Origin: Marsupella aquatica
Lineage: Eukaryota; Plantae; Marchantiophyta
Assembly: GCA_973895155.1 (NCBI GenBank)
Contig: OZ316891.1
Location: 29,680,331-29,744,330 of the forward strand
Reading direction: 5' to 3'
DNA length: 64,000 nucleotides
Shown here: positions 291-36,056 of the stretch, piece by piece
How positions within the stretch are numbered: position 1 is the stretch's first letter
Layout: the number at the start of each line of letters is the position of its first letter
Position numbers and translations under genes: made by a program
Notes under the pieces: model-generated
Told to the model about the DNA's origin: nothing
Seen by the model: only the letters and a program-made list of their open reading frames with translations
Database searches by the model: none

Positions 291-351
291 GGCGGAACGT
301 CAGAGCACAAAGTATGCCAATGCATGTGGTTAAATGAGGCGCGGCAGCGCT

Positions 352-597
352 TCACCGCCCGCCGTCGAGGTGCCGGGCTTCTTCCTCGACCATGATGGGA
401 ATGCCGTCGCGGATTGGGAAGGCGAGCCGCGCTGAGCGGCTGATCAATTCCTGGCGCGCGGCGTCGTACTGGAGCGGGCCCCGCGATACGGGGCACACCA
501 GAAATTCCAGCAACTTGCCATCGGGAACGGCGCGGCGCTTGCCCGCTTCCTTGTCAGTGCTCGCCGGTTCGGCCATGACGGGCGCCCCGACGTTCAT
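352..597 (-). CDS. Trm112-like / UPF0434 (YcaR-family) protein
   Basis: [14 protein letters not shown]...ELIS...[12 protein letters not shown] motif typical of the family; start overlaps the stop of the upstream gene (ATGA, 594-597). Confidence 0.9.
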
Positions 598-1304: not shown

Positions 1305-1367
1305 CGCGGCTCTCCGCCAGGGGGAAGGCGAAACGACTTCATACGGAACGACTTGGTTCAGCGTCGC

Positions 1368-11000: not shown

Positions 11001-11071
11001 GTGTGAGTACCATCAGGGTGACTTGACTGCATTTCAAAATGGGCAGATTTTTTTTAATCTTAGACTATGTT

Positions 11072-11248
11072 TGTCGTGACATATAGTATCGTAGCCATAT
11101 AGTGTATCGAAAACATACAAGTCACCAGCAATGCATATGTGCAAGCTGCTAGCAACCAACATGCATAGAAAAAGTTCAATCACATTCACAAGTGCCAAAA
11201 AAAGCAAGTGAGGTGGTATGTACGTAGTGGAGGTATAAACCTCTGTAT
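11072..11248. repeat. Element 1 repeat A, copy 1 (177 bp, terminal)
   Basis: Near-identical to 11613-11790; two differences seen. Confidence 0.95.
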
Positions 11249-11610
11249 ATAAAAGGCGTGATAGAAACAAACGTACTGAAATCGAATCGAAAACCGGCGA
11301 GATGCCAAGATCGGCCGGGAGCATCTAACGAATCACTGTGTGAATTCCGTGTACGGAACCGACGAGCAGCCTCTGAAAAACTCTGTCTCACAACGATTCA
11401 AGAAGAACTGAAGAACGGCAAAGAAAAACATGCCCTAAGTAGGACCGGGTCCAGGCGTCACACTAACAAACCCCTTTTGCTTCAAGAACAGCCCAGACTC
11501 GCTACAAGAACATGACACTAACTCAAGTAGTACATTAGCCCTAACCATACCTAGCGGGCATGCGAGGGACATGCCGATGTGCACAAGCGGCACTGTCCCT
11601 CGGCATGACA
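11249..11610. repeat. Element 1 repeat B, copy 1 (362 bp)
   Basis: Near-identical to 20468-20829; ORF-track peptides 11258..11515 and 20477..20734 differ at one residue. Confidence 0.95.
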
Positions 11611-11612
11611 GC

Positions 11613-11790
11613 TGTCATGACATATAGTATCGTAGCCATATAGTGTATCGAAAACATACAAGTCACCAGCAATGCATATGTGCAAGCTGCTAGCAACCAA
11701 CATGCATAGAAAAAGTTCAATCACATTCACAAGTGCCAAGAAAAAGCAAGTGAGGTGGTATGTACGTAGTGGAGGTATAAACCTCTGTAT
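11613..11790. repeat. Element 1 repeat A, copy 2 (178 bp)
   Basis: Begins TGTCATGACA, two bases (gc) after the end of B copy 1; ends at ...acctctgtat next to the C8 tract. Confidence 0.95.
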
Positions 11791-11798
11791 CCCCCCCC
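11791..11798 (-). promoter_or_regulatory. Polypurine tract (G8 on the sense strand) of element 1
   Basis: Sense ...ctGGGGGGGG|atacagagg: about 30 bp after the pol stop (11831) and immediately before repeat A. Confidence 0.7.
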
Positions 11799-11830
11799 AG
11801 ACCACAGTCAAAAGGAGGGCTGAAGAAAAG

Positions 11831-14800
11831 TCAGATAGCACGTGGAGCACAGGAAGGGCAAAACCATAACCCTTCTGGCACCTGGGTAAGTTCAGGCCGA
11901 AGGCAGAAAAGATGGTACCCTCCATTGCAATTGTCACACAGCAGCATCTGGTCAGCATCATCAATTCGCAAACACACTTTGCAAGGGTAGTCCACAGGTG
12001 GAATCCAAGTAGAAGTCACAATGGTGGGATCCAGGTTAGGCAGATGACAAGGGGCGCAATTCTTGGCATTGTCAGCAATTGTGCGCCCATCTGCCCCTTG
12101 TAACTCTAGCACTCCAGACGGTCGAATAGCTTTAACCCTGAGAATAGTACGACTGGTAGAGGTGTCCAGGGTGTCGTTAGCTTACCGCTGCAAGTACACA
12201 AAATCTCCCACATCAAACTTCCTGACCTTGGGCTGAAAAGTGCCACCTCGTGTGTGTGCATAACGCAGTGTGTCCCTGTGCTGTGCAATGGTCAAATTCT
12301 CCATGGCCATGGGCATAACCCTCCTGAATAGGGCAGCCCTCTCAGAGATCACATCAGACCAAGTCACAGCTGAATCCAAGTCCACCACCTGAAGCATGTG
12401 AGCAGCAATAGTAGAAGGTGGAACTGGGTGACGATCAAACAACAAGAAGTAGGGAGAAAAGTTAGACAGTGATGCATGTCTGGACATCCTATACCATGGC
12501 AATGTAGGGTAAGGCCAGGTCCCAATCCTCCTTGTTTTTGGTGAGGCAGATCTTCCAGAGACCCTTCTTGCATGTCTGAACCATGCACTCTGCCAAGCCA
12601 ACTGCCTGTGGGTGATCTCGTGATGTCCGGCGATGATCAATGAGGGCCTGATCAAGCAGCTCCTGGAACTCTCCTCTAAACTCTGAGCCCTGGTCAGTGA
12701 GACATTATGCACAAGCTCCAAAGCGGTTGAGAACTTGTTGTAGGAATGCCTGGCTGGTGCTACGGGAGGTCTTATCCGGCAATGCCACAAGTTCTATCCA
12801 CTTGGAGAAATGCTCTATCATGATCATGATGTAGAGATTACCCCGAGATGTGAGGGGTAATTCTCCAGCCAAATCACATGACCAACGATAAAACATGCCC
12901 TGAATAGGGAGTGGATGAAGTGTGGGTTGCCGAGATGTGAAAGAAGTCCTCACCCTATCACACTGTTCACACCGGGCAATAACATCTTGAACCTGGCCAT
13001 GCATGCCTCTCCAATGATAATGAGGGACCAAGAGGCTGTAAGTCCTCTTAACGCCAAAATGACCAAGCTCAGAATGTACCTTACGGATAAGGCCAACCCT
13101 CTCATGAATGGGTGGAACCACCACTTCCCTGTCTAGCAAGCAGCGCACGAGATGATCTCCCTTCCACAAGTAGCGCTTGGACCTTTGCTAAATTCGGTCT
13201 CTCTGGGCAGCAGTAACATGTGTGGGGTACTCCCCATGCTGCAGAAATCTCAGAGTGTCGCTGTCCTCCCATATGTCCACCACAGGTTGGTCAACAACAT
13301 AGCATGGCAGCAAAGCAAGATAGGTCGATGCATGAAATGTAGGCAGGATGGAAACCTGGTCAAAATCTTGCCGTGCATCTGAGGAATCATCAGAGGTAAT
13401 CAAAGGGCAGCTGGACATAGTGTCAGCATTCTGATGTGTCACACCAGGCCTATGAATTACCTCAAAATCATACTCCTGGAGTATGAGCGCCCAACGAGCA
13501 AGCTTGCCAGTAAGCTTGTCGTTGGTCATCAACCACTTCAAGGGCTGGTGGTCGGTGTAGAGAATAAACCTGGTCCCATAGAGGTAGGGCCTATAATGTA
13601 TGACAGCCCACACAACAGCAAGGCATTCACCCTCATAAGAAGAATAATGACTCTTTGCCTGATTGTTGCTCCTGGATGCATAGGCAATGACGTACTCTTT
13701 ACCTTCCTCATCATGCTGGCCCAGAATGGCACCAATCCCAAGGGCACTCCAATCTGTGTGTAGCACAAAGACCTTGTTGAAATCAGGTCTTCTCAGCACC
13801 GGGTATTCTGAGAGCTTCTCCTTCAAAGTGGCAAATGCTGCCTCAGCATCTGTACTCCATGTCCAAGTCACATTCTTTTTCAACAAAGCATACAATGGGT
13901 GTGCAATGGTACTGAAATCTTTGATGTAGATCCGGTAGTAATTGCACAACCCAATAAAACTCCTCAAAGTGTGAACATCGGTAGGAGTGGGCATTTCCAA
14001 GATGGATACCACCTTGGCCCAGTGAGCCATGGTTCCATTTGGAAGAATGCGATGCCCAAGATATACTACTGATCTGACAGCAAATTCACACTTCTTGGGG
14101 TGTATCTTTAGGTTCACCTTCTTAAGCCTCATGAATAGCTCCTCAAGGTCAAGTAGATGCTGGTCAAATCCTTTGCTGTGGACCAACACATCATCAATGT
14201 AGCATTTCAGAAACTCAGCACCTTGCAGAACCTGGTCCATGACTCTTTGAAAGAATATGGGCGCATTCTTCAAGCCAAATGGCATCACCAACCACTCCCA
14301 TAGTTGGTTACTACCATGGAAAGCTATTTTCTTGCGATCCTTTGCAAGCAGCAAAATCTGGTTGAAGCCTTGCCTTAGATCCACAAGAGTGAAGATGTTT
14401 GAGTCTCCAATGCTGTCAAATAGCTCCTCTGGCCGCGGCATGGGGTACCTGTCCTGAGGTGTGACCAGGTTCAATGGTCTGTAGTCCCCACACATGCGCT
14501 TCTCTGTCCACAATCCACTGGAATCCTTCTTTGCTGGCATCACTGTAGCTGCCGCAAAATCTGATGTAGATGGCTGAATAAGACCAGCTTCATAAAGCTC
14601 TTGGCACCTCTCATCCACCAGCTGCCACTCATGCTTACTCAAACGGTGTCTCCGCCTAAAGATAGGTGTTTCATCAGCCAACTCAATGGAGAACTGCATA
14701 GTCTTGCACTTACCCAAGTCCTTCATAGAGAAAGCAAACACATTCTTATGCTTGAGGAGAAAATTCAGCAGCTGGTCCTTCTGTCTTTTACTCAGGTGGT

Positions 14801-17800
14801 TGCCCATGATAAATGTGTAGTTGGCAACACTAGGAATAGGACCTGATGTACTCGTGCTTGAAGAGCCAGAAGTGCCAGCCTCTCCACTGTCCAAGCTGCT
14901 AGCATGCTGCTGATAAGGTGATGAGGCCTCTCCAAGGCCTGCTGTATCTGTTGCTCTGGTCTGATCCACACCATGAAACTCAGAAATAATGTCAGCCACA
15001 TTACAAGGGACCTCCTCCCCCCCAACACTTGGACTGAAGCGGTGAGTGTTGAATAGAGGTAAGTGCACCTGGTCTGGATGCCATGTAGCAGCACTATGGA
15101 GGGGTAGGGCTGGAGCTCCTAATGCTGGAGGAATGTACATCTGAAAAAGGATGCAAGTGACCAGAAGCCAAGTGAGAGCATTGAGATCCATTACCCTGCC
15201 AAGTAAAGCATTCCTGGCCAGCCTGGTGATTTTGGTGTGACCTGTAGTACCGGGTTGGAAGCCCATAGCCCGTTCTCTCTCCTCAGGACTAGGTTCATCC
15301 CATGTACCGGTAGAATGTCGATAAACCAGCCCAGGACCATCACCCTGAAAAGCATGTGCACCTGGAAAGGACACAAATGTAGGCCAAGCAGCACGGGGTT
15401 GTCCAATGGTATTAGCTGGATACCAAGGTGCTGGCTCATGCTGTGTAACTGGTTGGCAAGAACTGTCAGGATCCAAAATCTGGTCCACTGTAAGGTTAGT
15501 GTCCCTGGATGTGTGGTGAAGAGCCATCTCCAGCAAGGAAGGTGGTGCAAGGTTAGTCCAAAAGTTACGAAGACGATGTGCATAAGAACCACAGTGCACT
15601 GCATCAATGAGAAGGGGTGGTCCCAAGTAGTGCTGGACCACACTGAAATCCTCTTTGACCTGTGGACGCTGGTCAAACTGAGATGGAGTATTCTCAATGA
15701 TATAACCAACAGCAGGATAAAGGGATTGAGCCCAGGTGAGAATCTGAACCAATGCTGTGAAAAGGCCAGAACGAGAATCATGCAGTCCAGCACCGTGACC
15801 AGCAGCTGAAAACCCTTGGCATTCCCAACCAGCTATGATCAAATCAAGGGAGCCAAGAAGGTTTAAGTGCCGGTGCTGGATAAGCTGGATATCTGGAGGA
15901 AAGAAAGAAAATGCAGACTTCCATGCACTGTGTGGAAACTGCTGAGGAAATCGCTCTGAAAATTCCAGCAGACGGGATTCAGCCACTTGCCTTGCACCTG
16001 GATCAATATCCACATAGATGTACTGCTTCACCACCATGCCAGACTGTAGGAGAGCTTCCAGGCCTGTAGAAATGCCACCAAAAAGCTCAAGCAATGTAAG
16101 GCCATCTGAAGGAGGAGTCCATGTAACTGGTGCGCTCAAGATTGGGGCTATTGGTTGTCCATGATGCTGCCCAAGGTCCTCAAATTTGTGCAATGCAGCC
16201 ACCAAAGGTCCATGGGCTGCTTGGAGCCGTTGTACCACCTCTGGTTGATGATCCACGTTGCTGGAAAGTGCTGCTACACGTGCAGCAACATGTGCAGTAG
16301 CCACCTCATCCTCATCCTCCTCAATCCAATCCTGCAATGGGTGGTTGACATAGGTAGCTGTGTGCACTGCTTTCAACACACAGTGGTGAGCCATAGGTGT
16401 ATGGGCACCATGCAAATCAAGTGGAATGTAGCCCAAGTGTGAGCCATCCGTATGCCAATCAACTCTGTAGTATGCATGCTCATGCCAATTGTCAATGGTA
16501 AAACCTGGTGGGAACAAAGCCTCCTGGCCAATGAGCACATCATACGTAGTGGCATTGGTAACCAAACATCTGACTGGGAAATGCAATTCCTGATCTGTAC
16601 CTCCATTAAAAGTGAGAGTGAGTAAAGTAGAACTCTCACCCAGCACATCCTCCATAGTGCCACTAGCAGTCCGAATGTGCCACCTGGATTACTGTAAATG
16701 ATCAGTCAACAGTCCCATCTTCTTGGCAAACTGAATGCCCAATATCACTGGTTGAGCACCTGTGTCTAGCATGACCACCTGAGGAGTGTGACCCTCCAAC
16801 TTGACTGCTGAATTCTTGTTGTCAACAATGGCAATGGTGGTGGAAACTAAAGTCCTGTCACTAGGCACCACTTTTGGCAAATGATGAGGTACCTTGTGAA
16901 GGGAGTTAGTGTCCACGGTCTTTCCACTCAACAACATAGCCAGGAAAGATGGAGCAGCATGACCAGAATCAAGTGTAGCTCTGGTCACACAATCAGCAGC
17001 AATCGGTACTAGGGCAGCCAAACCAGTGGAAACATGTAAAGGAGAAGAAAAAGGTCCAGTATGTACATGAGATTGGACCTCCAAAACCGGTGTCACAGGG
17101 GCTGATGAAGAATGCAGTGAGCCCTCTAGCGCTCTGATGACAGCTCTAGCATCCAACTGTAAATCATGGCAACTGAAAAGTGGAGTTGTAAGAATCCTTT
17201 GTGCCATACCGGAGGTGAAATGCTCAAGCAGCTCAGGAGAAACAACTCCCTGTGAAATGTCAGCAGCACCTGGTGGTGGAATGGATGTAGCTGCAACTCC
17301 CTCCCCCCTCGCCAACAAGGTGCGCTCTTCAGCAAGTGTGAGTGGCTGAAAAGATTGGGGCAGGACAGCCCGAGCGCCCCTGGCTCTAGTCAGAGGACCG
17401 GCAACAAGACCATCAGCCTGTACAATGCGGCGTGTGGGAGCAATACGGGAGGCAGCACTGGCCTGTTGGTAAGCAAAATAGGAAGGGCAGAATGAATCTG
17501 AAAATTCTGCTGTAAGGCCAGGCTGTGGAGCAGAGGACAGCACACACTCACCCATATGAGCATCAAATGGTAAGCCATAGAAAGAGCGGGGTAGAGGTGC
17601 TGAACTGTCAGCGGTGCCTGGGCCAGGGATGGGTTGCACGTGACCAGCCGGTTGAGAAGGACCAGCAGAGGCAGTGGACTTGCCTTTGATGTTGGCAAGT
17701 TGGGCACGTAAGGACTCAACCTCATGAGTCAGAGACTGGAGTTGAGTTGCCTGTGCGTTGTGAGCCTCCTTCTGAGCTGGTTGCTTCTGTGGCTGCTTGG

Positions 17801-19193
17801 GCAATTTGTTAGCACTGGGTGCTTTGCCACTGGAAGGAGGAGCAGTGGATGCAGTAGGAGCCCTCCTAGCTGGTGGGGGAGTGGAAACAGGAGCAGGATG
17901 AGTGGCCTGCTGTCGTAGCTGCTTCCTCTCGGGGAATTTGGCAAAACAGACTGCCTCCAAGTGGCCCACTTTCCCGCAAAAATCACAAGATAGGTCCTCA
18001 GCAACAATATCACATTCATTAGCCTTGTGATTAGGGTTACCACAGTAGTTGCAAGATGGCAGCATGAAAGCAGCATGTGCTGGCTTGGTCTTGGAACCAT
18101 ACTGTGGCACACGGGGAGGAGTGACCAGTGTAGGGGCAGCAGCCTGGTACCTAGATCGCGGTGGACGTGCAATACTGGCCTCATAATGTGCATGGGCCAA
18201 CTCAAGTTTATCAGCAGTGTCATAGACATTGAGCAAGGTGTAGCTGTCTCCAAACTCTGAGAATACTTGTTGCAACACTTGCGAATGGAGAGCTGGTGTG
18301 CCCTCCAATGCACGAAGATAGCGATGAGCAGCTTCCAGGTCAGTGATGCTCTGGGTGTCCTCCTTCAGCTTGAGAAGCCGGCGATACATCATCTTCAATG
18401 TTTCATCGCGCTGCCTCACAAAGGTGGCCAACTGCATGATTTTGTCAGCACTCTTGATTGGGAATTCCAATTCAAGAACCTGGAAAAACTCAGCCACTGG
18501 ATCAGCAAAGGCAGGGGAATCAATGGTGGGAGAAATGCCTGATGTAGCCTGTGCCAAGACAGTGGGAGTAACAGGCGCAGTGGTAGGAACTGGAGTAGGA
18601 GGGGAAGTGGCAGGAGCAGCAGCATGGGCTGCAATGGCATTTTGTAAGGCCAATTGTGAAGCTGCCGCAATTGCACTGGCATAGGTAGGGTTAGGCAACT
18701 GTGTGACAGCAAGCAGCCGTTGAGAGTGCTGCTCATACACATCTAAAGCCTCATGGTGCACATACCTGGCTAGCTGCTTAAATGCAAACGCATTTGTGAA
18801 ATTGCTGCCGTACTTCAACTCCAATTCGTAAACGCCAGTGTAGAAAGTGGATTTGAACTCACGTAAAGAGACAGTGCCTGGCCGCCCGCTGAAGCGCTCA
18901 ATGCGGCCAGATGAGTGGCTGGCATCCATGCTGTATGTCGGTGAAGTAGGAACAACCACTGATGCAGAAGGGGTAAATGGCAATGAAGTGATAGCAGGCT
19001 TCGGAGTAGTGGTGAAGCGACTGCCAAATGTAGCAGGAGGATTGCGTGGTGTGGGTGCTGCTGCTGTCTGTGGACGTCGTCGAAATTGATGAGACTCCAA
19101 TGAAATTGGCACCAATGGTCGTGGATCACTCCGTAAGTGGTACCGGGGTGTCGGTGGCGATGAGCTGCTACGACTCGGCTCCTCTGCTGACAT
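11831..19193 (-). pseudogene. Element 1 gag-pol polyprotein: one ancestral frame with in-frame stops at 16689, 13188, 12705 and 12182 and a frameshift near 12490
   Basis: Two CCHC knuckles (CNYCGNPNHKANEC, CDFCGKVGHLEAVC); protease LDTGAQ; RT RMCGDYRPLN...MPFGLKNAP...YIDD; RNase H LHTDWS...YEGECLA; integrase HxxxGH...CxxC, WSCD, LTDQG, GLAE; PHD CKVC...LLCDNCNGGYHLFC...WFCPSC. Confidence 0.9.
15160..16100 (-). CDS. C5 cytosine DNA methyltransferase domain (DNMT3-like) in frame between protease and RT of element 1
   Basis: Motif I LELFGG, II YVDID, IV AGWECQGFS, VI IENT, VIII AHRLRNFWTN, IX ERERAMGF, X LLGRVM. No stop within the domain. Confidence 0.9.
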
Positions 19194-19615
19194 GCTGCAT
19201 GCTCACCCGGGGTGCCTAAATCGAAAATGTCCCCCTTCCCGGTGGTACGAGGTGCTGAGGGGAAAGAAACTGACAAGAAAAATGGGTGCTAGCCCCAAGG
19301 CTAGGAAATAAAACCCACAAAGGAAACAACCGTGCGAGGCAGAAATGTGTAGACTGGCCCTGCCGAAAATATACTCACAAAAAAAATGAACAGAAAGAAA
19401 ACAAGAGGAAACGGCGAAAAGGGGCCTCCATTATGTGTATAGATAGGGGTCTGTGTATACACATAACATGTGTATACATCGTCGGGCTCCCTGGAAGAAA
19501 AAGAGGCCGGAAAGAAGCAGGTGTACGCACACTCGGGAGGCACGGTACCCTATGCTGCAGGGCGAGGCGAGGCGAGGCTGAGCGAGGTGACAACTTAATG
19601 GCTCGGGCCCTGCAT

Positions 19616-19956
19616 AGGGCTTCGTGCCCCACTATGAGCTCCCCCTATCCCCCTTTTGGGCCTTGTGCCCTGGCAGCGAGTGACTCCCGAGAGAGGAGTC
19701 GCGAGTACTCCCCCCCTCTTTAAAGCTGAATTAAGGGCTTCGTGCCCTGCAGGAGAACTCCCATGTGAGGGAGTTCGAATTGAACTCCCCTCCTCCTTGC
19801 ACACTCGCTCCCCCTCCTTCCTGCTTTGGCTTGTACTTGGCTCCCCCTGCCCCTGCTTTAATGTTGCTTAGGGCCTCGTGCCCTCTCCTGCGCTCCTGCC
19901 TCCTGCCCTGATTCCCCCTATCCCTGCTTTAATTACTCCATAGGGCCTCGTGCCCT
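19616..19956 (-). repeat. Five repeated stem-loop motifs (A)GGGC-ACGAR-GCCC(T) in the element 1 leader
   Basis: + strand copies at about 19616, 19658, 19734, 19870 and 19942 (gggc[ct]t[ct]gtgccc). Confidence 0.75.
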
Positions 19957-20455
19957 CCGTCCCCCCTCGCTTGCTTGTGGCAGGGCGACGAAAAGGAAGG
20001 GAGTCGATCCCCCTCCCCTTGTGGCAGAAAAGAAAGGAAGAAAAGGGGCGTTGCGAGGGGGAGAAATGGGCGCGCGGCCCTATGCACTTGGGAGGTAATC
20101 GCGGGGTGGCCGAGGCTGCCAGGAGGTGGTCGCACGATGGTCGAGGCAGCCGGGAAGTAGTCGCGCGACGGCCGGCAAACACCGAAAGAAAAATGGCCCA
20201 AATAAGCACCGAAAAATGCCGAAAGTGGTGGATGAGTCGTGCAGTCAGCAGTCGGCAGCCATAGTCGAGTTGCGGCCGACAAGAAATATCCGGGCCCCTT
20301 GTTATGTGTATACACTTAAGTATACACATAACATCACAATAAACCCATAACTTTTAACTCGTCACTCCGATGTCCGTCGAAGAAATTGCAATGGCTTCAC
20401 CAGAAATTGTCAAAATCGTCACGAGCAATCTTCTTCCCGTCACCGCTAACTCGAG

Positions 20456-20469
20456 AGTTCTTCTTGAAT
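20456..20469 (-). promoter_or_regulatory. Candidate self-priming primer-binding site of element 1
   Basis: agttcttcttgaat (20456-20469) is the exact reverse complement of attcaagaagaact (20615-20628) inside repeat B. It abuts the inner end of B; no tRNA-type TGG PBS is seen. Confidence 0.75.
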
Positions 20470-20829
20470 AAAAGGCGTGATAGAAACAAACGTACTGAAA
20501 TCGAATCGAAAACCGGCGAGATGCCAAGATCGGCCGGGAGCATCTAACGAATCACTGTGTGAATTCCGTGTACGGAACCGACGAGCAGCCTCTGAAAAAC
20601 TCTGTCTCACAGCGATTCAAGAAGAACTGAAGAACGGCAAAGAAAAACATGCCCTAAGTAGGACCGGGTCCAGGCGTCACACTAACAAACCCCTTTTGCT
20701 TCAAGAACAGCCCAGACTCGCTACAAGAACATGACACTAACTCAAGTAGTACATTAGCCCTAACCATACCTAGCGGGCATGCGAGGGACATGCCGATGTG
20801 CACAAGCGGCACTGTCCCTCGGCATGACA
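20468..20829. repeat. Element 1 repeat B, copy 2 (5' end of the element on the sense strand)
   Basis: Direct repeat of 11249-11610; ends CATGACA followed by the TSD. Confidence 0.95.
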
Positions 20830-21002
20830 TGTTGGACATCCTTACCTATATCAGCCTTTAACTCTTAGAACCTCTCAAAACCCTTTAATTTATATTCTCT
20901 TTGGACCCATCCAATCCAAAGCTCTGTGAAATACACCCACTTGCAGTGTGACTCACTCAAGGCATTGTACAGTGGGCCCAAATACACCTCTCATGCAATC
21001 TA

Positions 21003-26060: not shown

Positions 26061-27381
26061 AATTCTGAGTTTTCGAGTAATTATGCTTGTGAGTGGGGAC
26101 GGGCATGGGAGTCTGGGTGCAAGGAGCCCTTCCTGTGTATACACATGGGTATCCGGGCTAGTACCTATTGAAAATTTCAGTGGGGACAAAAATTAGGTAG
26201 TTTTACAAAAAAGAGAGTTTTTTTTCAAAAACATAGTTTAGGTATATTCTAGTCAGCATTTTAATACAACTCTGATATATCAGTGTATGGATCATATTTA
26301 AAATAAACAAATGAAATCTACTTAGATATTTATGGCATTGCACTAAATATGATAATTAATTAAGGGTGATTGTCCGTCCCTAGGATAGTGGGCCAGCTCA
26401 GGTGGCCAGGAGGTCTCAATTTCAATCCACGCCCTGACAATTTTTTCCAGATTCTGATCCTACTCTAGCATCTAGTATGTGTTCATTTGTACCAAACCGC
26501 TTTTGGAGGGTAAAATGTGTTGTGCATATGTGCTTGTGAGGGTAAAATGTGTTGTGCCATATGTGCTTGTGGTAGTTGTAGGTATAATAAAATAAACAGC
26601 TTTTTAGTAACCTGTCCCCCTAACTGCTCGAATTTAGCATCCAGTCCCCAAAATGAAGATATTTATAACCTGTCCCCCTTTCCGTATGTGGGTTACCAGT
26701 AGTCGTATACTATGTGACCTGAGCTGCTTGGAGAGGCGCTAGTGGCCTACAATTTATCTGGCAGTATCCCTGGTCAGCCCTTCCCCATTTCTCATTGCGA
26801 TGCATCCTGGGAAAGCCCGATACGTTTTGCACGTACATGCCCTCATTTTTCCTCCCGAAAACATTTCACAAATGTGCACACATTTCTTGATTGTCCGGTG
26901 TCATCTTCGGTTCGATTACATTTCATTCTTTGTGCTGGCTGTGGCTGAGGACGAAGATCATGCTGGCGAAGGGAGACCAACATGTGCTCATTCACAGGTT
27001 CTTTTCGGGTGAAAGACAAGAAGACACAAAATGCAGTCTCCCTTGTCACACCATTATGAGTAGTGTAGTAGTATATCGTGCTATTAGAGTATGTACGTTT
27101 GGTATGAGTGCTATTGAAGCCGATAAGGTTCCATCAGGTTTGTGTGAGAGGGTACTTCTCACTTGTGAGGCAATGAAAGGTCATCTTTCAATGTTGAGCC
27201 TTGGAGAGAGAGGAGCTTGAGGAGCCTGAGTGTGGCTATGGTGGCTGTGAGCTCCGCTTGTGTAACGTGGATTCCTTGAGTAGTGCAAGGTGCGTTGGCT
27301 TGACATACGTTTGTGATCGGATCGGTGCGGGATCGATGGGGTATTGTTGACCGGGATCATTGTGCCGATTGTATTGAGATT

Positions 27382-27393
27382 ACATTGAAAGAT
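27382..27393 (+). promoter_or_regulatory. Candidate self-priming PBS of element 2
   Basis: acattgaaagat (27382-27393) is the exact reverse complement of atctttcaatgt (27183-27194), which is preceded by tc (TCA Inr-like). It lies about 340 bp from the 5' end, versus about 360 bp in element 1. Confidence 0.7.
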
Positions 27394-27887
27394 CAGATGC
27401 GAACTCTGTTGTGTGGACTGTGCAAACAGAAGTTCGTTTCGGATTGATTGAGTTGGTGACGGTTTGTGGAAATCGTTTCAATCTGTTGCGTGGATCCGTG
27501 GTATCTCGGATCTCATTGAGTAGATCGTTAGTCCTTCAATCTGCTGCAGTTTGTGTTGGCGAATGCTATTTTGAGGAAAGAGATCACAGATCGTTGAAGA
27601 TCGCAGATCGCTCATTGTGTCACCGGATCTGGGCACATAACGCTGCTGTTGTAGCCGAGTTTGAATGTTGGTTTTTGTGGAGGAAAGCATTCTGCGAATG
27701 TTGGCGGATCGTCGGACAGTGGAAGTCATCCGCAAGGCTTTAGATCTGATTTTCGACTACTGCGATAAGGCGCAAGTGAAGCGGCGATCTGCCGATGCTC
27801 CGCGCGGTTATGTGGAAGGGCCAATCCGTGCGAAGTTGCTGCAACTCGCGGATCCGATCGGCAGGGCGCCGACTGCTCGCAGCTGAT

Positions 27888-28062
27888 CCGCAACTCTCGA
27901 CTGTCCGTCGTTCTGTGAAGGGAAACTGAGAGACGGAAATCTGAATGTTGCCGAAACTCGATTTGGCGTCCGTCGCCTGCTGATTCGCAACTCCCGACTG
28001 TTCATCGTTCTGTGAAGGGAAACTGAGAGACGGAAATCTGAATGTTGCTGAAACTCGATTCG
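27888..28062. repeat. Tandem duplication (about 97-bp period) in the element 2 leader
   Basis: cgcaactc.cgactg...tcgttctgtgaagggaaactgagagacggaaatctgaatgttgc.gaaactcgatt occurs twice. Confidence 0.85.
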
Positions 28063-28770
28063 GCGTAGCGGGCGTGAAGGGCTCACCCTTTGGCTCATCT
28101 CGGCATTTTGAGGCTCCGAGGCAACTCGTGGTTACTCGGGATGAGGGGCGTGAGGGTGGAGCAGGAGCGGGCGGGCTTGCTGGTACGTGAGGAGTACTTG
28201 CAAGTGCTGTCATTTTGGAGTGGCAGATTTGGTGCATAATGACAAGTGAGAGGTCACCCATCCCAAAGCTATTCCTCCTCTCATGCGCTTAACTAACAAG
28301 TTTCTATGTGGTGCATTGTACATGCTTCCTTCCACATTTGATGTCCAAGGAATGAGGCCCTAGGGGTTTTATGCACTTTTGAATTCATCTAGATACTCTA
28401 TTTTAGCTAGTTTGCGATGGATTCTTGAATATTTGACCCGGGATTCTTGAAGCCTATTATGAAGGCCCTACATTGAACTATATGCACATTATTTACATGT
28501 ATTTCTGATTGATTGGTGTGGAGAGTTGTGGTAAATCCTCTTCTTGTTGTTGGATCCTCTCCACACATGCTTCCTGTTTATGCGCCATGTTAGTTTGGCG
28601 TGGGCGCTTGATTCTATAGGAGTGATCCGGGTTTGCAACCGGACATTCTAGTTGTGCTATGTATTTCTCTCCTGGTGATGTTGGAGTGATGCCCAACACA
28701 CCATGGTGAGTGTTTGTGGTGCTGACAGGGATAGATTGCCTTTAGGGTTAGCACATAGATTAGGTTAGGG

Positions 28771-31700
28771 TTGGTCACCACGGATTCTTCTGGTGCTGCT
28801 GGATTACCCGATGAACGACGGACCGGTTTCACTCGGAGTGGGGCACAGTTTCGGCCAGCGGCATTGGTAGCAGTCAGCAGTGCAGCTTCAGATAGTGATT
28901 ATGATGAGGACTCAGTGACCAGTTCTCCTCGTCATCAGGTGGTTGCACCTTTGTTGTGGGATATGGACGAGATGTACGGGGCTACAAAGGGCCCACGACG
29001 ATACTCTGGTGCAGTTGGCACAATTGATCTGGATGACTTCATCCAGGAGTTTGATACGTGGTGCGATATGCAGACATTGCGTAACGTCACGTTGTTTACC
29101 CCTTTCATGGCATGGAAGAGATTATTTCAGCATTTGGAGGGGCCACCCATGGATGACTACCATGAGTTTTGGAAGGCTCATTTGGTTGAGATTGAGGCAT
29201 GGAGGCAGCATTGGTCACCTAATTACGTGTCCATCACCTATGGCACTAGTGCGGCTGCCCAACCCATTGCCATAGCTATTGCCTCTTCTAGCAGCACTAG
29301 CCAGAGTGGCACACCATCCACCAGCAGCACTCCAACAGCATCCACCGCTACTCCTACCGGTGTGATTGTGACAGGAACTGGAGTTGCGCCAGCATTTAAT
29401 CCTGTGGTGGAATTCTTTGAGGTACTGAAGCAGAACTATCAGGGTGTGAGAACTGATAAGTTGACGGGTCTTCAGGAGTTCCAACGCAAGACTGGAGAGA
29501 GCCTACGTGAGGCATACACACGTATGCGCAGATTGATCACTGTCACCAAGGGAGTGACAGAGGCTCAGGCAGTCCAGTTTTGGTATGCAATTCTGGATAG
29601 AGAATTGTGACGTAGAGTGAGAGATGTCACTCTGCTTAGGGATGCAGATCCCACATTAGCAGTTGTTTTCACCCTTTCTGAGCGCATTGAGCTCAATATG
29701 GTGAATGAGAAGGTGGTGACTTCTGGATTTGCCAAGGAAGCACCAAAGGCTGCATCTACATCCACACCACAGCCTATTGCACGGAAGAGCCAGAGGGAGA
29801 AGCCTACTGCATGAGAGTCTACCAGCCAGAGACCTGTGTCCTCTTATGCTGGACAGCAGTCAGGATGTTGGACCTGTGGTGGGGATCATGCACAGAGATA
29901 TTGTCCAGATCATAGAGGATCAGGGGGAGCATCAGCGCCTGATCAGCGACAGTGTGATCACTGTGGAGCTCCTGGACACACCAAGGATAGGTGTTCTCAC
30001 TCCATCCTGAGTTACGGAGAGGAGGATCCCGTACACATGATCAGGGAAGAGGAGGAGGAGGTAGAGGTGGTGGACGTGGTCGTGGCATGCCACATGCAGG
30101 GAGACAGGGAGGTGACGCTGCCCCTGCTGTAACCATAGATCCAAAGGATGCTAAGATTGCTCAATTGGAGCAACAGCTAGCTGCCATGGCTAGTTCCCAA
30201 GTGAGACCTACATCTGGTGATGGGGCATCTACATCCTATGGACCTTCCACATCCCATGGTCCTTCCACATCTTATGGAGCTGATGGAGATCTTGCCACCA
30301 TGGGATTCATGTGTGGCACTGCACATATTGATGCATCAGCAGCTTTAACACGTGGGGCAGCCAAAGCTCTTGAGCCCCGAGGAGCAGTAGTGGAGCTAGA
30401 TCCACAGAGGGGGGATGCACGTCGGCAGACAAAGCTTCCTCAGTCTTTTACATTGTCAGAGACAGTTCACACTGCCTCTATGAACCCTGTTTGGACAAAC
30501 CCTGATGTGGGTAAGTTGGCAGAATCAGGTAGTGATGCAGCAGGGATGACAAGTACCTTGCTGGGGGCGGCTACTGCCATGGTACGTGCCCCATTATTTT
30601 CAGCGGCAGACATGCTGAACTTGGGAGTTGGTCCTGCATAAGTGTTTAGATTGGCAGCTACACTCTGTGAGGACACTCTAGTTGTTGCTTCCCATGCAGA
30701 AGCAACTTGTAGTGTTGAAGCAGTGAAGACCATACCACCTACTGCTACTCGTGAGACATGGCATGCAGCAGCAGCGAGGTTGGTGGATTTACCAGCACGC
30801 CCTGCATTTGAGAGGACTAGGTTTAAACCTAGTGTTGTGTCATTGGATAATCGGAGTGGTATCTTTCGATTAGTTGGGCCTTCTGGAGCAGTATACCAGC
30901 CAGAGAGAGTGTTACTGGACGCTGGTGCTCAGCCCTTGATGTTGGGGAAGTCTGCCATACATGGATTGAGATTGCGTCCAAAGGATTTGGAGGATTGTCC
31001 CTTTCCCATTCAGACTTCATTGGGGGGACCTACACCTACATAGCATATCACCAGGAGACCACTTGATTTGAGGATTTAGGAAGGTCATACCATAGATAGC
31101 TCACAGATACAGGCGCGAGCTATTCTAACTAAGGCAGAGTCATATGATGTGTTGGTGGGATGTACAGTGCTCTACCCCATGGGATTTATTCTTGATTTTT
31201 GGGAGGAATCAGTGTCATATAGACCTGATTGGCAGTCAGGAGATACTCGATTGAGAAAATTGCCAGTGAGATTTAGTGGACCTGTGGGAGGCCCTAAATC
31301 CACACCATTGTCTTTGGCAGCATTCAGTTGTGTAATTGCTGGACCTGATGATTTGATTGAGGGTAATGCGCATGCAGCCGATGTTCCACCATTGGAGGAG
31401 TCTCATGAGGAGCACATCATGCGAGGATTACCTGTTGGCAGTGTTGTGCCACCAGTGTGGGGCACTGCACAAGCCTTGCCACAGGCAGCAGCACGATTGG
31501 TACATGATGCATGGCGTCATGCTTTTACACCACAGTCAGGAGTAGAGCAGTCTCTTGCAGATGGACCTGTGACTCTTTCACCATTGGATACCACTCCTAT
31601 TGCTTGGCAATATCCACCGGAGGGTATTTGTTTGTTGGATCTTTTTGGTGGGATTAGCACTGGATTGGCTGCTGTTCTTCAGGCAGGAATTCCTGTGCGT

Positions 31701-34700
31701 CGTTATTTGTATGTGGAGACAGATGAGACAGCACGGAGGGTCTCATTGCGACATGTGGCTATATTGGTGGATAGATATCCACAGTTGCTGCCAGTGGATG
31801 CTGTTCGTGGTTATCAGCATGCACTACCTGCTGATATTTCATTATTGGGGGCGGATCATCTACATCGTGTTGGCCCCATTGATTTGGTGATTGCTGGTTG
31901 GCCATGTCAGGGCCAATCTAGAGCTGGCATTGGGCATGGACTTCATGATCCACGCTCTGCATTGTTTTGGGAGATGTTACGGGTGCTGCGTCATCTCCAA
32001 CTACATCAGACACAGTCTCCAGCATACATTTTGGAGAATGTGCCATTGTTAGGTGATGATCATAGTCGGATTGTTGCCAGTGTTCACCAGGTGAGGTCTT
32101 GGATTGGACCTGCTGTGTTATTGGATGCTGCACGTGTGGGTTCTCGTGCACATCATCCACGCTTGTGGTGGACTAATTTGATCCCATGTGAGGTGCTGAA
32201 GCACGCATTTGACAGCATTCCACGCTCACCAGCCTTAGTGGTGGATGATATTTTGGATCCAGGGCGTCGGGCATAGGGTGTGACCCAACCTGATAGACCT
32301 CCATTGGCAATGGTCAATGCAGTTGGGTGCCCACGTTGTGCATTACCCACTCTTGTAAGCCACTCTGCTTCATATGCATTCAGAGCAGGTGGCCTTGGAC
32401 TTGTGTGGGACACAGCTCTCCAGCAGTTAGTGGAGCCTACTACTAATGAGAGAGAGCGTGCTATGGGATTCTTGACTGGCACCACTACAGTTGCCTCTGT
32501 GTCAGAGGGTTTGCGACGCCAGGTTCTTGGTCAAGCAATGGACCTGAATTGTTTGACTTGGATTATCAGCTTGGGAGTAGCTGAACAGTTGCGGATGCGC
32601 TCTGCTGGAATTACTGATTGTCCCTTGGTGAGCTTGCGGTCCACTGAGACAGTATTGACCACAGCTGGGGGTGAGCAGACAGTCCATGGACCTATGGCAG
32701 GATTGGCCAAGGCTGGACAGATTGTTGAGTAGGAAGGGACTGCTTAATCTACTGCTAAATAGCAATCATCGGCTATCTCTTCTACCCTACAAAGAGATAT
32801 TAGGGATTTGGTGGAGAGTTGGGAACCACAGCTTGGCCCTAAGTTAACAGGGGAGGAGAGACGTCGCATGCATCGATTCCTGAAGAGTTATTGGAATTGT
32901 TTTGCATTCAGCATGAAGGATTTGGGGACACTGAAGGGCCCTGGTATTCAGATTGAATTGGCTAGTGATGCGCCAATCTTTCGTAGACCATACCGTTATA
33001 GTGACATGGAGAGAGCTCTGATTCAAAGCAGAACTCAAGATTTGTTGGAGGCTGGATTGGTGGAGATTTCATATGGGGAGTATGCATCTACCACAGTGAT
33101 GCGAGCCAAGAAGGATGTGCATGGCAATTACACAGATAGGCGCATGTGTGGTGATTACAGACCTATTAATCGCCAGACAAAATCTGATCGATATGCCATG
33201 CCCACACCTGAGGAGATCTTTGATGCTGTGGGGCATGCAAAGGTTTTCAGTTCATTGGATCTGAGGGCATAGTACCATCAGCTTCCAATTAGGCATGCTG
33301 ACAGGTCCAAGACAGCATTCTGGGGGATTGATTCTTATGGCAAAGATCATTTGTATCAGTGGTTATTCTTACCATTTGGGTTGAAGAATGCACCAGCTGA
33401 GTTCCAGAGAGTCATGGATCGAATCCTTGCAGGTTTGGATTTTGTCAGATGTTATATTGATGATATTTTGGTCTATTCTTCTACTGTGGAAGAACATCAA
33501 CAGCACTTGCAGATTGTGTTAGAGAGATTGAGAGCACATGGGTTGAAGCTCCATCTTGGCAAGTGTAAGTTCTTCCAAGACCAGATTGAGTATTTGGGCC
33601 ACACTATATACCCAGAGGGATTGGGTGTACAGTAGACTAAAGTGGAGGCCATTACACAAATTCCTTGTCCTACTGATGTGAGTAGAGTTCGTGCATTCTT
33701 GGGATGGGCGAGCTACTACAGGAGGTATGTTAAAGGATTTAGCCAGCTTGCTAAACCTTTGACCATACTCACTAAGTTGGATCAGGAATGGATTTGGGGT
33801 GATGACCAGGAGCATGCCTTTCAGGAGTTGAAGCAAAGGTTGGCATCATCCCCTATTTTGAGAAGACCCATTTCAGGCAGACCATTTCAGCTACACATTG
33901 ATTGGAGTGGAGTAGGACTTGGAGCAGTGCTGACTCAGAAGGATGATGAGGGGAATGAGTTTGTTGTGGCTTATGCCAATAGATCAAACAATTCAGCAGA
34001 GGCTAAGTATAGCTCTTATGAGGGAGAGTGTTTGGCAGCAGTGTGGGCTGTTGCACACTTTCGTTGCTACTTGTTTGGTAACCCCTTCACCTTGATCACT
34101 GATCATCAGCCTCTTAAGTGGTTAATGGAGTCTGACAAGCTTACAGGGAAGCTTGCACGATGGCATTGTTGTTACAGGAGTATGATTTCCAGGTGGTGCA
34201 TAGGCCTGGAAAAGTGAACTTGGATGCAGATGGATTAAGCCGCAATCCATGTACCAGTCAGCAAGATGAGACTGGAGCTAGATGGCATGATGAGTCAGAT
34301 AAGGAGATGGTGCCAGGATGGCATGCATCTGCCTTTCTTTGTTGGGTGCCAGCATACAGTGGATCTGTGGACTCTACCTCATTGGATGGAGTGGATGATG
34401 AGTCTTCAGATGTGGATGTTGGTGAGGTAACTTCTGGACAACAAGATATTCACAATGACGTGAGAGTGTTGGAATATCTGCGCAGTGGTTCTATTGTTGG
34501 CAGTGTTGATGCCAAAGAACGTGACAGGGTTCTACAAAGAGCCAAGAGGTTTCGATGGGAGGGAAACCATCTTTTGAGAGTACTGCATGATGATAGGATG
34601 TTGGTGGTACCAAAACCATCACAACAAGTATATTTGGTGCGACATGCGCACGAGGAGTTGGGTCACTTTGGTGTGAAGCGCACTTACAGCTTGCTGCAGA

Positions 34701-35886
34701 CACAGTATTGGTGGCGTGGTATGCACACTCATGTCCAGCAGTTGATAGCTAAGTGTGTGGTATGCGATAGAGTGAGAGCATCATTTAATGCTCCCACTCC
34801 CCAGTTGCACCCGTTGCCGATCATGGGTTTGGGATATCGTTGGAGTTTGGATTTTGCTGGTCCATTACCTCTTACCCAACGTCATAATCGATATGTTTTG
34901 GTCATGGTGGAGCACTTCTCCAAGTGGATTGAACTAGTAGCGTTGCCAGATAAGCCAGTGGAGGAGTTGCTGCTACATTTTTGGATCGTGTACTCAGTCA
35001 TTTTGGAGCACCAGCTGAGGTGTTGACTGATCAGGGAACTGAGTTCCGTGGAGAGTTTGAGAGTTTGTGTGAACAAGCTCTGATTGATCATCGTACTACC
35101 TCTCGTGATCATCCTGAGGCAGATGGATTAGCTGAGAGAGTTGTGCAAACTGTGAAGAGAGGATTGCGTAAGTATGGCTTGCAGGTTGGTCATCTGGGAG
35201 ATTGGGATCTCCAGCTACCTTGGTTAGCTATGGGCTACCATTTCAGTCGGCAAGCATCACTTGCATCATTCTCACCTTACTTTTTGCTCTATGGTAGAGA
35301 GCCAGATTTGCCAGCAGCTATTCGTCGTGATGCTGCATCAGTTGTGAACTTGGATGATCCTGATGTTTGGGTCAAGGTGTGTTCAGAGAGAGCACGGGTA
35401 TTTCAGCGAGTGATGCCCATGGCTTTCGACAACCTTGTCATTGCCCAACATCGTGATACTTTGAGGTATGCCACTATTTGTGGAGGAGGTTACCGTGCAA
35501 GCATTCGACGATTTCATCCTGGTGATTATGTTTATTTGCAGCAGACAGCACCCACCACACTTGATGTGACCGCAGGCCGGACAATCTTACGTGTGCGTGA
35601 AGTGTTGCCTTTTGGTGTCCTGATGTTGGAGGGACGCGATGGTATGGTTTGGAAGGATCATGTGCGCAACTGTGCACCATGTCACCTTCCCAACATTGAT
35701 GGTACAGTAGATCCAAGCTTGGCACATGTTCGTGCTGGCTTGAAATGTATGTTGTGTGGATCTGCTCAAGGAGCAGCTACTATGTTGATTTGTGATCAGT
35801 GTTCTAGAGGATGGCACATGTCATGTTTGACACCACCATTGCAGGTGATTCCTAGTGGATCATGGTTGTGTCCTCAGTGTCGGTGA
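28771..35886 (+). pseudogene. Element 2 gag-pol polyprotein, degenerate (many stops and frameshifts)
   Basis: Gag FQRKTGESLREAYTR; knuckles CWTCGGDH...C and CDHCGAPGHTKDRC; protease LDAGAQ; RT RMCGDYRPIN, LPFGLKNAP, YIDD; RNase H LHIDWS; integrase HEELGH...CVVC, WSLDFAG, LTDQG, DGLAER; PHD CMLC...ICDQCSRGWHMSC...WLCPQC. Confidence 0.9.
31623..32570 (+). pseudogene. C5 cytosine DNA methyltransferase domain in element 2 (one in-frame TAG at 32274)
   Basis: LDLFGG, YVETD, AGWPCQGQS (canonical PCQ), LENV, AHHPRLWWTN, ERERAMGF, VLGQAM. Confidence 0.9.
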
Positions 35887-36049
35887 AGCCGACTAGTTAT
35901 CATTTGTGTTCTCTTGGCAGATATGGATTGCAGGTAGGTGATCGATGGGGCTCACTTGCACCCGGCCTCCTGATCTTCACACCTAAAAAGGTGTATATCA
36001 ACCTTGTAGAACTCATGGCTAGCTAGAGTAGGGGACCTTACTCCCAGCT

Positions 36050-36056
36050 AGGGGGG
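36050..36056 (+). promoter_or_regulatory. Polypurine tract (AGGGGGG) of element 2
   Basis: G-run downstream of the pol stop and 140 bp before the CA terminus; same position as the G8 of element 1. Confidence 0.6.

What the first reader, a model, noticed from the sequence alone, without database searches (positions are those of the whole stretch)
15160..16100. C5 DNA methyltransferase embedded in pol between protease and RT in a land-plant retrotransposon
Seen: motifs I, II, IV, VI, VIII, IX and X in frame within the polyprotein, at the same position in both elements. AHRxRxFWxN and LLGR resemble DNMT3-family motifs. Established: DNMT-carrying retrotransposons have been reported from dinoflagellates and charophyte algae; they are not a standard feature of embryophyte Gypsy lineages. 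Inference: the protease would release an MTase packaged in the particle that methylates the cDNA or circle (self-marking, protection or self-regulation), or acts on the target locus.
Basis: partly seen in the sequence, partly recalled or inferred. Interest (0 to 1): 0.85.

Follow-up and report, generated by a model that had tools for sequence, protein, structure and literature searches.

The report
Liverwort retrotransposon carrying a DNMT3-like methyltransferase
This is a recently inserted but broken copy of a jumping gene, likely from a leafy liverwort, whose polyprotein contains a conserved DNMT3-like DNA methyltransferase that likely methylates the element's own DNA copy; the same kind of element was described in a green alga, and its split end repeats suggest it would insert from a circular intermediate.

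Summary
Observation confirmed. A complete C5-cytosine methyltransferase domain (16118-15126, minus strand) lies in frame between protease and RT of a Gypsy element. A second, divergent element (27044-36196) has one at the same place. By sequence and predicted fold it is DNMT3-like, with unpermuted motif order. It evolves under purifying selection and belongs to a large family (556 clusters at E≤1e-30). Named relatives occur in Marchantia, Riccia, Calypogeia, Sphagnum, Klebsormidium, Closterium and two chlorophytes. A neighbouring host gene points to a leafy liverwort.

The element matches KnitGypsy-Dnmt3 (de Mendoza 2018): DNMT3 in Pol, Gypsy domains, DIRS-like split repeats. It is a new member of a known kind; my searches found no report from land plants. 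This scan already noted the family in peat moss (e1-7304403).

Added here: TG…CA ends, a 4-bp target duplication, a Tf1-like self-priming site, and an internal CA-NN-TG junction. These suggest LTR-type reverse transcription, then integrase cutting a circle. Enzyme activity, proteolytic release and substrate are untested; the algal domain showed no activity in yeast. This copy has stops and a frameshift outside the domain.

The parts
15126..16118 (-). DNMT3-like C5-cytosine methyltransferase domain of element A, motifs I-X in canonical order; Cys 15819-15821, Glu 15693-15695, RxR within 15552-15584
11072..20829 (-). Element A, whole: X1 - 5' leader - gag-pol - PPT - Y1 - GC - X2 - Y2; begins TG, ends CA
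20468..20829 (-). Repeat X1 (362 bp; 361/362 identical to X2)
20615..20628 (-). 14-nt stretch in X, complementary to the site after X1; predicted RNA 5' end and self-primer
   Evidence: 0 of 200 shuffles reach it; role inferred from Tf1
20456..20469 (-). Predicted self-priming primer-binding site at the end of X1
16800..19190 (-). Gag-like region with two CCHC knuckles (about 17945-18055) and spacer; bounds approximate
   Evidence: read from the sequence; similar N-terminal region in P0002
16440..16800 (-). Aspartic protease (DTG), interrupted by a stop at 16689-16691; bounds approximate
   Evidence: (PF13650 E 0.006, below cut-off)
14046..14507 (-). Reverse transcriptase core (YIDD at 14190-14201)
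   Evidence: PF00078 E 2e-27; closest solved RT is Ty3, E 3.5e-67
13470..13859 (-). RNase H
   Evidence: PF17917, PF17919
11842..13112 (-). HHCC zinc finger, rve (DDE-type) integrase core and C-terminal PHD finger; broken by stops at 13188-13190 and 12705-12707 and a frameshift near 12490
   Evidence: PHD of element A read from its Cys/His pattern, element B's scored PF00628 E 2.6e-11
11791..11810 (-). G-run polypurine tract directly before Y1
   Evidence: same in 7 of 7 loci whose Y1 start was printed
11613..11790 (-). Repeat Y1 (178 bp, ends CA)
11604..11619 (.). Internal Y1/X2 junction: 16-bp palindrome with CA-GC-TG at its centre; predicted integrase attachment junction
11249..11610 (-). 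Repeat X2
11072..11248 (-). Repeat Y2 (ends CA)
11068..11071 (-). 3' target-site duplication AACA
20830..20833 (-). 5' target-site duplication AACA
27044..36196 (+). Element B: divergent lineage, X-ORF-PPT-Y form with no second X or Y; TG...CA ends; 4-bp duplication CCCT at 27040-27043 and 36197-36200; many stops and frameshifts
31626..32600 (+). Methyltransferase domain of element B between protease and RT; internal stop, first motif-VIII Arg lost; end approximate

Best explanation
The domain is a DNMT3-like cytosine methyltransferase carried in the Gag-Pol polyprotein of a PHD-bearing Gypsy element with split direct repeats, and it likely methylates the element's own newly made DNA before insertion. 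Shown: the domain, its fold class, its catalytic residues, purifying selection, and the repeat, PPT and target-duplication anatomy. Inferred steps: (1) a single Gag-Pol frame is translated, so the enzyme would be packaged, free or still joined to RT; (2) the RNA would start inside X and prime itself on the site after X1, as Tf1 does; (3) ordinary LTR-type reverse transcription would give a duplex flanked by Y-GC-X units, whose ends are not TG...CA; (4) these ends would join into a circle, which creates the X|Y junction seen at X2|Y2; (5) the DDE integrase would cut CA^NN^TG inside one unit and insert with a 4-bp duplication, giving X-ORF-Y-NN-X-Y; (6) the methyltransferase would put 5mC, probably at CG, on this duplex or circle, so a new copy arrives looking like host DNA or is already damped down. 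This copy is dead as an autonomous element, although its methyltransferase frame is intact.
For: Catalytic Cys, motif VI Glu and second motif VIII Arg are invariant in 58 of 58 aligned domains (56 of 63 homologues long enough, plus both window copies); the first Arg in 57 of 58. Against 11 related loci, synonymous sites are saturated (pS 0.71-0.75) while dN is 0.22-0.28, about half that of the flanking linkers (mostly 0.39-0.50). Variants shared between loci are 82 non-synonymous to 81 synonymous, singletons 124 to 56 (Fisher p 0.0006). Among copies in four sequencing runs, 16 of 25 listed variants in the core are synonymous, none is a stop and none hits the four catalytic residues (p 2.5e-5; 40 of 66 variants were shown). 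Against 63 distant elements the domain is as conserved as RT (39% vs 38% identity), and RT and DNMT distances correlate (Mantel r 0.58, 0 of 999 permutations). The domain sits at two positions in Pol, before RT or between RNase H and integrase, as a separable module would. Related SymbioDIRS DNMT3 domains methylate CG de novo. CpG across codon junctions is 0.13 and 0.06 of expectation in the two elements against 0.67-0.85 in three host genes, and 0.0-0.73 in five stop-free ORFs of the other arrangement. Replication anatomy: self-priming complement in 4 of 6 elements tested, with different sequences in different families; exactly 2 nt between Y and TGTCATG in 8 of 8 loci with the internal junction; exact 4-bp duplication in 3 of 5 full split-repeat copies, one mismatch in 1, none in 1.
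Against: No activity has been shown for any Gypsy-borne DNMT3 in the papers I read; the Klebsormidium domain gave none in yeast (inconclusive by the authors' account). Element A has E-C instead of P-C in motif IV; this is the family's commonest form (35 of the 53 rows in the 12 commonest patterns), but its effect is unknown. CpG loss is equally explained by host silencing, and repeat X is not CpG-depleted (o/e 1.03), which does not fit uniform self-methylation. No cleavage sites were identified. A symmetric two-unit circle should also give the permuted form X-Y-NN-X-ORF-Y, and 0 of 11 5' X ends in related loci are preceded by Y, so step 5 needs an asymmetry I have not shown. Self-priming was not seen in L007 or L026.
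Confidence: 0.5

Rival explanations
1. The enzyme travels with integrase and the PHD finger and methylates the target chromatin or the freshly inserted copy, not free cDNA.
For: In the commonest arrangement the domain sits directly before integrase-PHD (100 of 304 proteins have RT or RNase H before it and 32 more have it next to integrase; 150 could not be assigned). The PHD finger is a histone-binding module (general knowledge).
Against: In this window, in Marchantia, Calypogeia and Klebsormidium the domain lies after the protease and before RT, far from integrase.
Confidence: 0.17
2. The enzyme marks integrase attachment junctions. It methylates the first-made internal CA-GC-TG junction so that integrase spares it and cuts the other, which would explain why methyltransferases accompany split-repeat retroelements.
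For: The permuted form is absent (0 of 11). The junction's central two bases are GC in 3 of 8 loci and AC, GT or AT in 5, all C-to-T-type changes in a CHG setting. DIRS-type elements carry DAM or DNMT3 enzymes.
Against: The decay of the centre is not clearly above general CHG mutability in old copies, and AC may be one inherited variant. Split repeats were not found around loci with the RT-RNaseH-DNMT-integrase order, though those contigs may be cut short.
Confidence: 0.1
3. The domain is kept for a non-catalytic or non-DNA role, such as nucleic-acid binding in the particle, RNA methylation or sequestering host factors.
For: No activity of the Klebsormidium domain in yeast; non-canonical E-C in motif IV.
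Against: Invariance of Cys, Glu and Arg in 58 of 58 domains is what catalysis demands; the fold is closest to DNA-specific DNMT3A, with DNMT2 far lower.
Confidence: 0.13
4. The methyltransferase is functional, but replication follows a DIRS-like route: the RNA runs into Y2 and the internal Y-X junction templates both ends, with no symmetric two-unit circle.
For: The repeat layout equals that of DIRS-type elements; no permuted form was seen.
Against: Y starts exactly at the PPT and X ends exactly at a self-priming site, which are the bounds that LTR-type reverse transcription produces. There is a 4-bp duplication and an rve integrase, and no tyrosine recombinase among the Pfam hits.
Confidence: 0.25
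5. A neutral passenger: a captured host gene fragment that is decaying.
For: Both window elements are damaged, and element B's domain is broken.
Against: Searches show wide distribution and purifying selection.
Confidence: 0.02

Closest known systems
KnitGypsy-Dnmt3 of Klebsormidium nitens (de Mendoza et al. 2018, PMC5890265; passages, sections 10 and 11, and a supplement term search read; figures not held)
   Same: Unpermuted DNMT3-like domain in the Pol ORF of a Gypsy element; DIRS-type repeat layout; purifying selection. Klebsormidium protein KFL_000540020 (P0237) is 38% identical over 224 aa and appears to run on into the start of RT.
   Different: Host is a land plant. Two lineages occur here (RT 49%, DNMT 42% identical). 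The PHD finger, self-priming site, PPT-bounded Y-NN-X unit, junction palindrome and 4-bp duplication are not mentioned in the passages I read ('PHD' 0 times). The paper calls it an acquisition in the K. nitens lineage, while relatives here span bryophytes, Closterium and chlorophytes.
SymbioDIRS-Dnmt3 of Symbiodinium (same paper)
   Same: DNMT3 in Pol; A-ORF-B-A-B repeats; proposed cDNA methylation; these domains methylate CG in yeast.
   Different: Integrates with a tyrosine recombinase; this element has an rve integrase and target duplications.
Host DNMT3 (human DNMT3A/B/C; bryophyte DNMT3) and plant DRM
   Same: Fold and motifs: Z 29.3 to DNMT3A; profile E 5.7e-25 to DNMT3A, 2.8e-15 to the DRM-type entry 4onj, 4.6e-12 to DRM2, 5e-10 to M.HhaI.
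   Different: No accessory domains; embedded in a polyprotein; not permuted like DRM. No host DNMT3 sequence was in my tree, so descent from a plant host gene is untested.
Tf1/Sushi and plant Tcn1 self-priming Gypsy elements (PMC7175516, PMC6317226; passages)
   Same: A site right after the 5' repeat is complementary to a stretch inside it; single Gag-Pol frame in element A.
   Different: Those are chromoviruses with ordinary LTRs; here the repeats are split, the C-terminal module is a PHD finger, and there is a methyltransferase.
Gypsy-7a_cRei of Chlamydomonas (10.1101/2022.06.16.496473; passages and section 17) and EpiLTRs (10.64898/2026.05.21.726589; passages)
   Same: Algal Gypsy elements with a PHD finger (Gypsy-7a), or LTR elements with a DNMT (EpiLTRs).
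   Different: Gypsy-7a is described without a methyltransferase. EpiLTR DNMTs are sister to DNMT4, come with DAM and a chromodomain, and the authors call them distinct from Gypsy-DNMT3.

Membership tests
C5-cytosine methyltransferase (PF00145) | Profile match above the curated cut-off and motifs I, IV, VI, VIII, IX, X | tested here: met
C5-cytosine methyltransferase (PF00145) | Catalytic Cys, Glu and RxR present | tested here: met
   element A has all four; Pro before Cys is replaced by Glu; element B lacks the first Arg
C5-cytosine methyltransferase (PF00145) | Methylates cytosine in DNA | not testable with these tools
   needs an enzyme assay
DNMT3 clade | Closest by sequence and fold to DNMT3 rather than DNMT1, DNMT2 or bacterial enzymes; unpermuted order, unlike DRM | tested here: met
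DNMT3 clade | Nests with host DNMT3 in a tree | not tested
   no host DNMT3 or DRM sequence was among the stored proteins used; the tree had only prokaryote-like outgroups
Ty3/Gypsy retrotransposon | Order PR-RT-RH-IN, Gypsy-type RT, rve integrase | tested here: met
Ty3/Gypsy retrotransposon | TG...CA ends, short target duplication, PPT | tested here: met
Ty3/Gypsy retrotransposon | Two co-linear LTRs at the ends | tested here: not met
   repeats are split, X-ORF-Y-X-Y
KnitGypsy-Dnmt3 kind | DNMT3-like domain inside Gypsy Pol | tested here: met
KnitGypsy-Dnmt3 kind | DIRS-type split repeats | tested here: met
   element A and loci L002, L007, L026, L029
KnitGypsy-Dnmt3 kind | Purifying selection on the domain | tested here: met
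KnitGypsy-Dnmt3 kind | One clade with the Klebsormidium elements in DNMT and RT trees | tested here: inconclusive
   all element-borne domains fall on one side of distant outgroups, but the backbone has support under 95 and no full Klebsormidium RT was available
DIRS/Ngaro tyrosine-recombinase retroelements | Tyrosine recombinase as the integrating enzyme | tested here: not met
   rve and HHCC found instead; no phage-integrase family among the Pfam hits of the element frames scanned
Chromovirus (Tcn1, Chlamyvir) | C-terminal chromodomain | tested here: not met
   Pol ends in a PHD finger, then a stop and the PPT; RT placement against reference clades not tested

The most novel reading that the evidence does not exclude
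An old green-plant Gypsy lineage, surviving in liverworts and mosses, reverse-transcribes like a self-priming LTR element but integrates like no textbook LTR element: its DDE integrase cuts a circle at an internal CA-NN-TG junction. Its own DNMT3 methylates one of the two equivalent junctions to decide which is cut. Methyltransferases on split-repeat retroelements would then be part of the integration machinery and not only camouflage.
Probability: 0.1. Interest if true: 0.9.

Novelty: new member of a known kind. Interest (0 to 1): 0.55.

Why it matters
The role of retrotransposon-borne DNMT3 has been open since 2018, and the one Gypsy example sat in an alga and gave no activity in yeast. Relatives in Marchantia polymorpha (Mp4g09160 and three MARPO models) put the question in a genetically tractable plant with existing methylation mutants. 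These elements also inflate DNMT counts in bryophyte annotations, and tools that need two terminal LTRs would likely miss them. The terminal anatomy makes a sharp prediction, integration from a circle junction by a Gypsy integrase, which would surprise retroelement specialists. Interest is tempered because the kind is published, this scan has seen it in a moss, and nothing functional is shown.

Tried and rejected
No whole genome is held, so copy number and forms could not be counted genome-wide. Contig depth in run X3 (1207 on a piece inside the domain against 13-21 on flank pieces) shows a repeated family but is not a copy number. Viral contigs: 2 pattern matches, none confirmed. No RNA holder was listed, which is no evidence on expression. 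The protein atlas did not answer. No tRNA gene in the window; a tRNA-type primer site was set aside because the sequence after X1 does not begin TGG. The inverted repeats around element B (26596-26818, 36286-36509) first looked like DIRS-type terminal repeats. Rejected: B has its own TG...CA ends and 4-bp duplication inside them. The context of 21 copy-specific C-to-T changes (12 CHH, 7 CHG, 2 CG, against 3037, 950 and 402 available) shows no usable specificity. The among-loci RT dN/dS of 0.66 was discarded because L004 lacks RT and misaligned. In the DNMT tree the RT-first clade sits next to element A's clade, while in the RT tree the DNMT-first elements form one group (99). The conflicting DNMT nodes have support 89-91 and the careful search did not finish, so no order of events is claimed. 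No named vascular-plant hit appeared among 63 of 63 and 120 of 352 listed homologues, but most rows carry no name, so absence from ferns, lycophytes and seed plants is not shown. Literature: ten searches gave no paper reporting these elements in land plants, or circle-junction integration by a Gypsy integrase. The library lacks most subscription papers. Two de Mendoza-lab papers say 'streptophytes'; their supplementary trees, which I did not see, may include bryophyte sequences.
Full report
Observation. On the minus strand, the frame 13191-16688 is open for 1166 residues and carries PF00145 (E 3.7e-6, above cut-off), RT and RNase H. Motifs I, II, IV, VI, VIII, IX and X lie at 16094-15186 in canonical order. 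The protease DTG motif is just upstream in the same frame, across one stop. A second element on the plus strand has the same domain at the same place (31632-32543; E 6.7e-11).

What the domain is. The single sequence ranks DNMT3A first among solved proteins (E 1.2e-7), then DNMT3C and DNMT3B, with M.HhaI at 0.037 and a DRM-type entry at 0.4. The alignment pairs AHRLRNFWTNL with AHRARYFWGNL and LLGR with LLGR. A 14-sequence profile gives the order DNMT3, DRM, bacterial enzymes, DNMT2. The AlphaFold model (pLDDT 91) matches DNMT3A best by Foldseek and VIA-align (Z 29.3, rmsd 2.6, 273 residues; M.HhaI 24.9). Catalytic Cys, Glu and the second Arg of RxR are invariant in 58 of 58 aligned domains. 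Element A keeps all of them; element B has an internal stop and has lost the first Arg. Motif IV reads E-C in element A, the family's commonest form.

Host and distribution. No genome is held. The neighbouring sigma factor is closest to Calypogeia fissa (75%), then Marchantia, Riccia and Sphagnum, so the host is likely a leafy liverwort. The element is held by runs of five coded organisms and by air metagenomes, some at small shares that I did not lay, and it is repeated in the runs laid. Homologues: 63 polyproteins, 352 shorter proteins of which 120 were listed, and 556 clusters at E≤1e-30. Named ones are from Marchantia polymorpha, Riccia sorocarpa, Calypogeia fissa, Sphagnum compactum, Klebsormidium nitens, Closterium, Haematococcus and Monoraphidium. 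In the DNMT tree (69 rows, quick method) element A groups with Calypogeia and Sphagnum (100), element B with Marchantia and Riccia (100), and the elements with RT before the domain form their own group (96). In the RT tree the nine DNMT-first elements are one side of a branch (99). Backbones are weak and unrooted, so no order of events is claimed.

Selection. Against 11 related loci, synonymous sites in the domain are saturated while dN is 0.22-0.28, about half that of the flanking linkers. Shared variants among those loci are richer in synonymous changes than singletons (Fisher p 0.0006). Of the 25 listed variants in the domain core among copies in four runs, 16 are synonymous and none touches a catalytic residue (40 of 66 variants were shown). 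At long range the domain is as conserved as RT (39% vs 38%). Both refuting conditions that could be tested fail.

The element around it. Element A runs 20829-11072 as X1 (362 bp), leader, gag-pol ending in an rve integrase and a PHD finger, a G-run PPT, Y1 (178 bp), GC, X2, Y2. It begins TG, ends CA and has a 4-bp duplication. The repeat pairs differ at 3 positions in 540, so the insertion is recent. Yet Pol has three stops and a frameshift outside the domain; at two of the stops the other copies in the runs read differently. The split layout recurs in L002, L007, L026 and L029, and in part in L004, L005, L006 and L018 (16 of 30 loci examined had repeat hits). The internal junction has exactly two bases between Y and TGTCATG in 8 of 8 loci, and is a 16-bp palindrome here and in L029. 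Duplications are exact in 3 of 5 full copies, one mismatch off in 1 and absent in 1. Element B and L009 are X-ORF-Y forms, with exact and 3-of-4 duplications. The sequence after X1 is complementary to a stretch inside X in 4 of 6 elements: 14 nt here, 15 in L002, 17 in L029, and 17 with G-U pairs in L018, each reached by 0 of 200 shuffles; not in L007 or L026. This is the signature of Tf1-type self-priming.

Mechanism. The unit bounded by the PPT and the priming site is Y-NN-X, which behaves as the LTR for reverse transcription, but the TG...CA ends lie inside it. The simplest route to X-ORF-Y-NN-X-Y is to join the cDNA ends into a circle and let integrase cut CA^NN^TG in one unit. A one-unit circle would give the X-ORF-Y form, although Y-Y recombination gives the same form. 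This is inference. Against it, the permuted product was seen in 0 of 11 5' ends, so an asymmetry or a DIRS-like route is needed; I put the circle route at about 0.6. For the enzyme I commit to de novo methylation of the element's own DNA in the particle or pre-integration complex (0.5). It is part of the polyprotein, its catalytic residues are invariant, SymbioDIRS relatives methylate CG, and coding CpG is strongly depleted. The CpG signal cannot separate self from host methylation, X is not depleted, and the Klebsormidium domain was inactive in yeast. Rivals are action at the target site, junction marking and a non-catalytic role.

Comparison with what is known. De Mendoza et al. 2018 (PMC5890265; passages, sections 10 and 11, supplement term search) describe KnitGypsy-Dnmt3 with DNMT3 in Pol, Gypsy domains and DIRS-type repeats, and propose cDNA self-methylation. 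The window element meets each feature I could test, and a Klebsormidium protein is 38% identical in the domain. PMC12344493 and 10.64898/2026.05.21.726589 (passages) say only 'streptophytes'. The plant LTR survey PMC6317226 has no occurrence of 'PHD' or 'methyltransferase' in its main text. Passages of five bryophyte or plant papers (10.1101/2021.02.12.428880, 10.1101/363937, PMC11982613, PMC10952607, PMC2864245) do not mention such elements. Ten searches found no land-plant report, within a library that lacks most subscription papers; supplementary trees of the two recent papers were not seen. An earlier agent of this scan reached the same reading on a peat-moss copy (e1-7304403). That is not independent support, and I saw it after forming my reading.

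Verdict. Real and under selection, but a new member of a published kind. Its value lies in the range extension to bryophytes and chlorophytes, a tractable host in Marchantia, and a testable prediction about circle-junction integration. Interest 0.55.

Noticed in passing
window 1-2100: A stretch of 66-73% GC with ORFs that look like bacterial thioredoxin/TPR, Lon N-terminal and Trm112-like genes (names from my reading of the translations, not from a call) joins plant-like DNA abruptly at about 2101. It may be an assembly chimera or a horizontal insertion.
   Followed up: partly
window 26596-27043 and 36201-36509: A short element with about 224-bp inverted ends (82% alike), probably a non-autonomous DNA transposon, into which element B inserted.
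   Followed up: partly
window 51742-55259, 55800-57443 (inverted), 60544-64000: A cluster of three related NB-ARC/STAND-type gene copies, 80-85% identical (PF00931 E 4e-8 on the first).
   Followed up: no
window 41843-43711: Nuclear-encoded plastid-type sigma factor in one long open frame; used to place the host near leafy liverworts.
   Followed up: yes
window 4740-8124: A plant gene with two long open frames and no Pfam hit for the first; from memory it resembles EMB1703.
   Followed up: no
element A vs P0001, L002, L007; element B vs L018: RT identity is 79-88% (A) and 84% (B) although synonymous sites are saturated in the A comparisons. P0001 groups tightly with a Sphagnum compactum protein, while the host sigma factor is only 57% identical to Sphagnum's. 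This suggests old horizontal transfer between liverworts and mosses, or very slow evolution.
   Followed up: partly
P0003, P0008, P0009, P0027: Four Marchantia polymorpha gene models are Gag-protease-DNMT proteins that end about 80 residues after the domain, without RT. They are annotated as hypothetical host proteins.
   Followed up: no
P0010-P0062; L015, L016, L019, L020, L025: A large group with the order RT-RNase H-DNMT-integrase-PHD, often in stop-free ORFs, includes Haematococcus and Monoraphidium: chlorophyte DNMT-Gypsy elements that I did not find reported.
   Followed up: partly
window 11235 and 11777: Y1 and Y2 share a base that other copies in the runs lack, as expected if both Y copies are templated from one Y during replication.
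   Followed up: no
L002:159-440: A TATAAAA box lies about 30 nt before the predicted self-primer in X; element A has no such box there.
   Followed up: no
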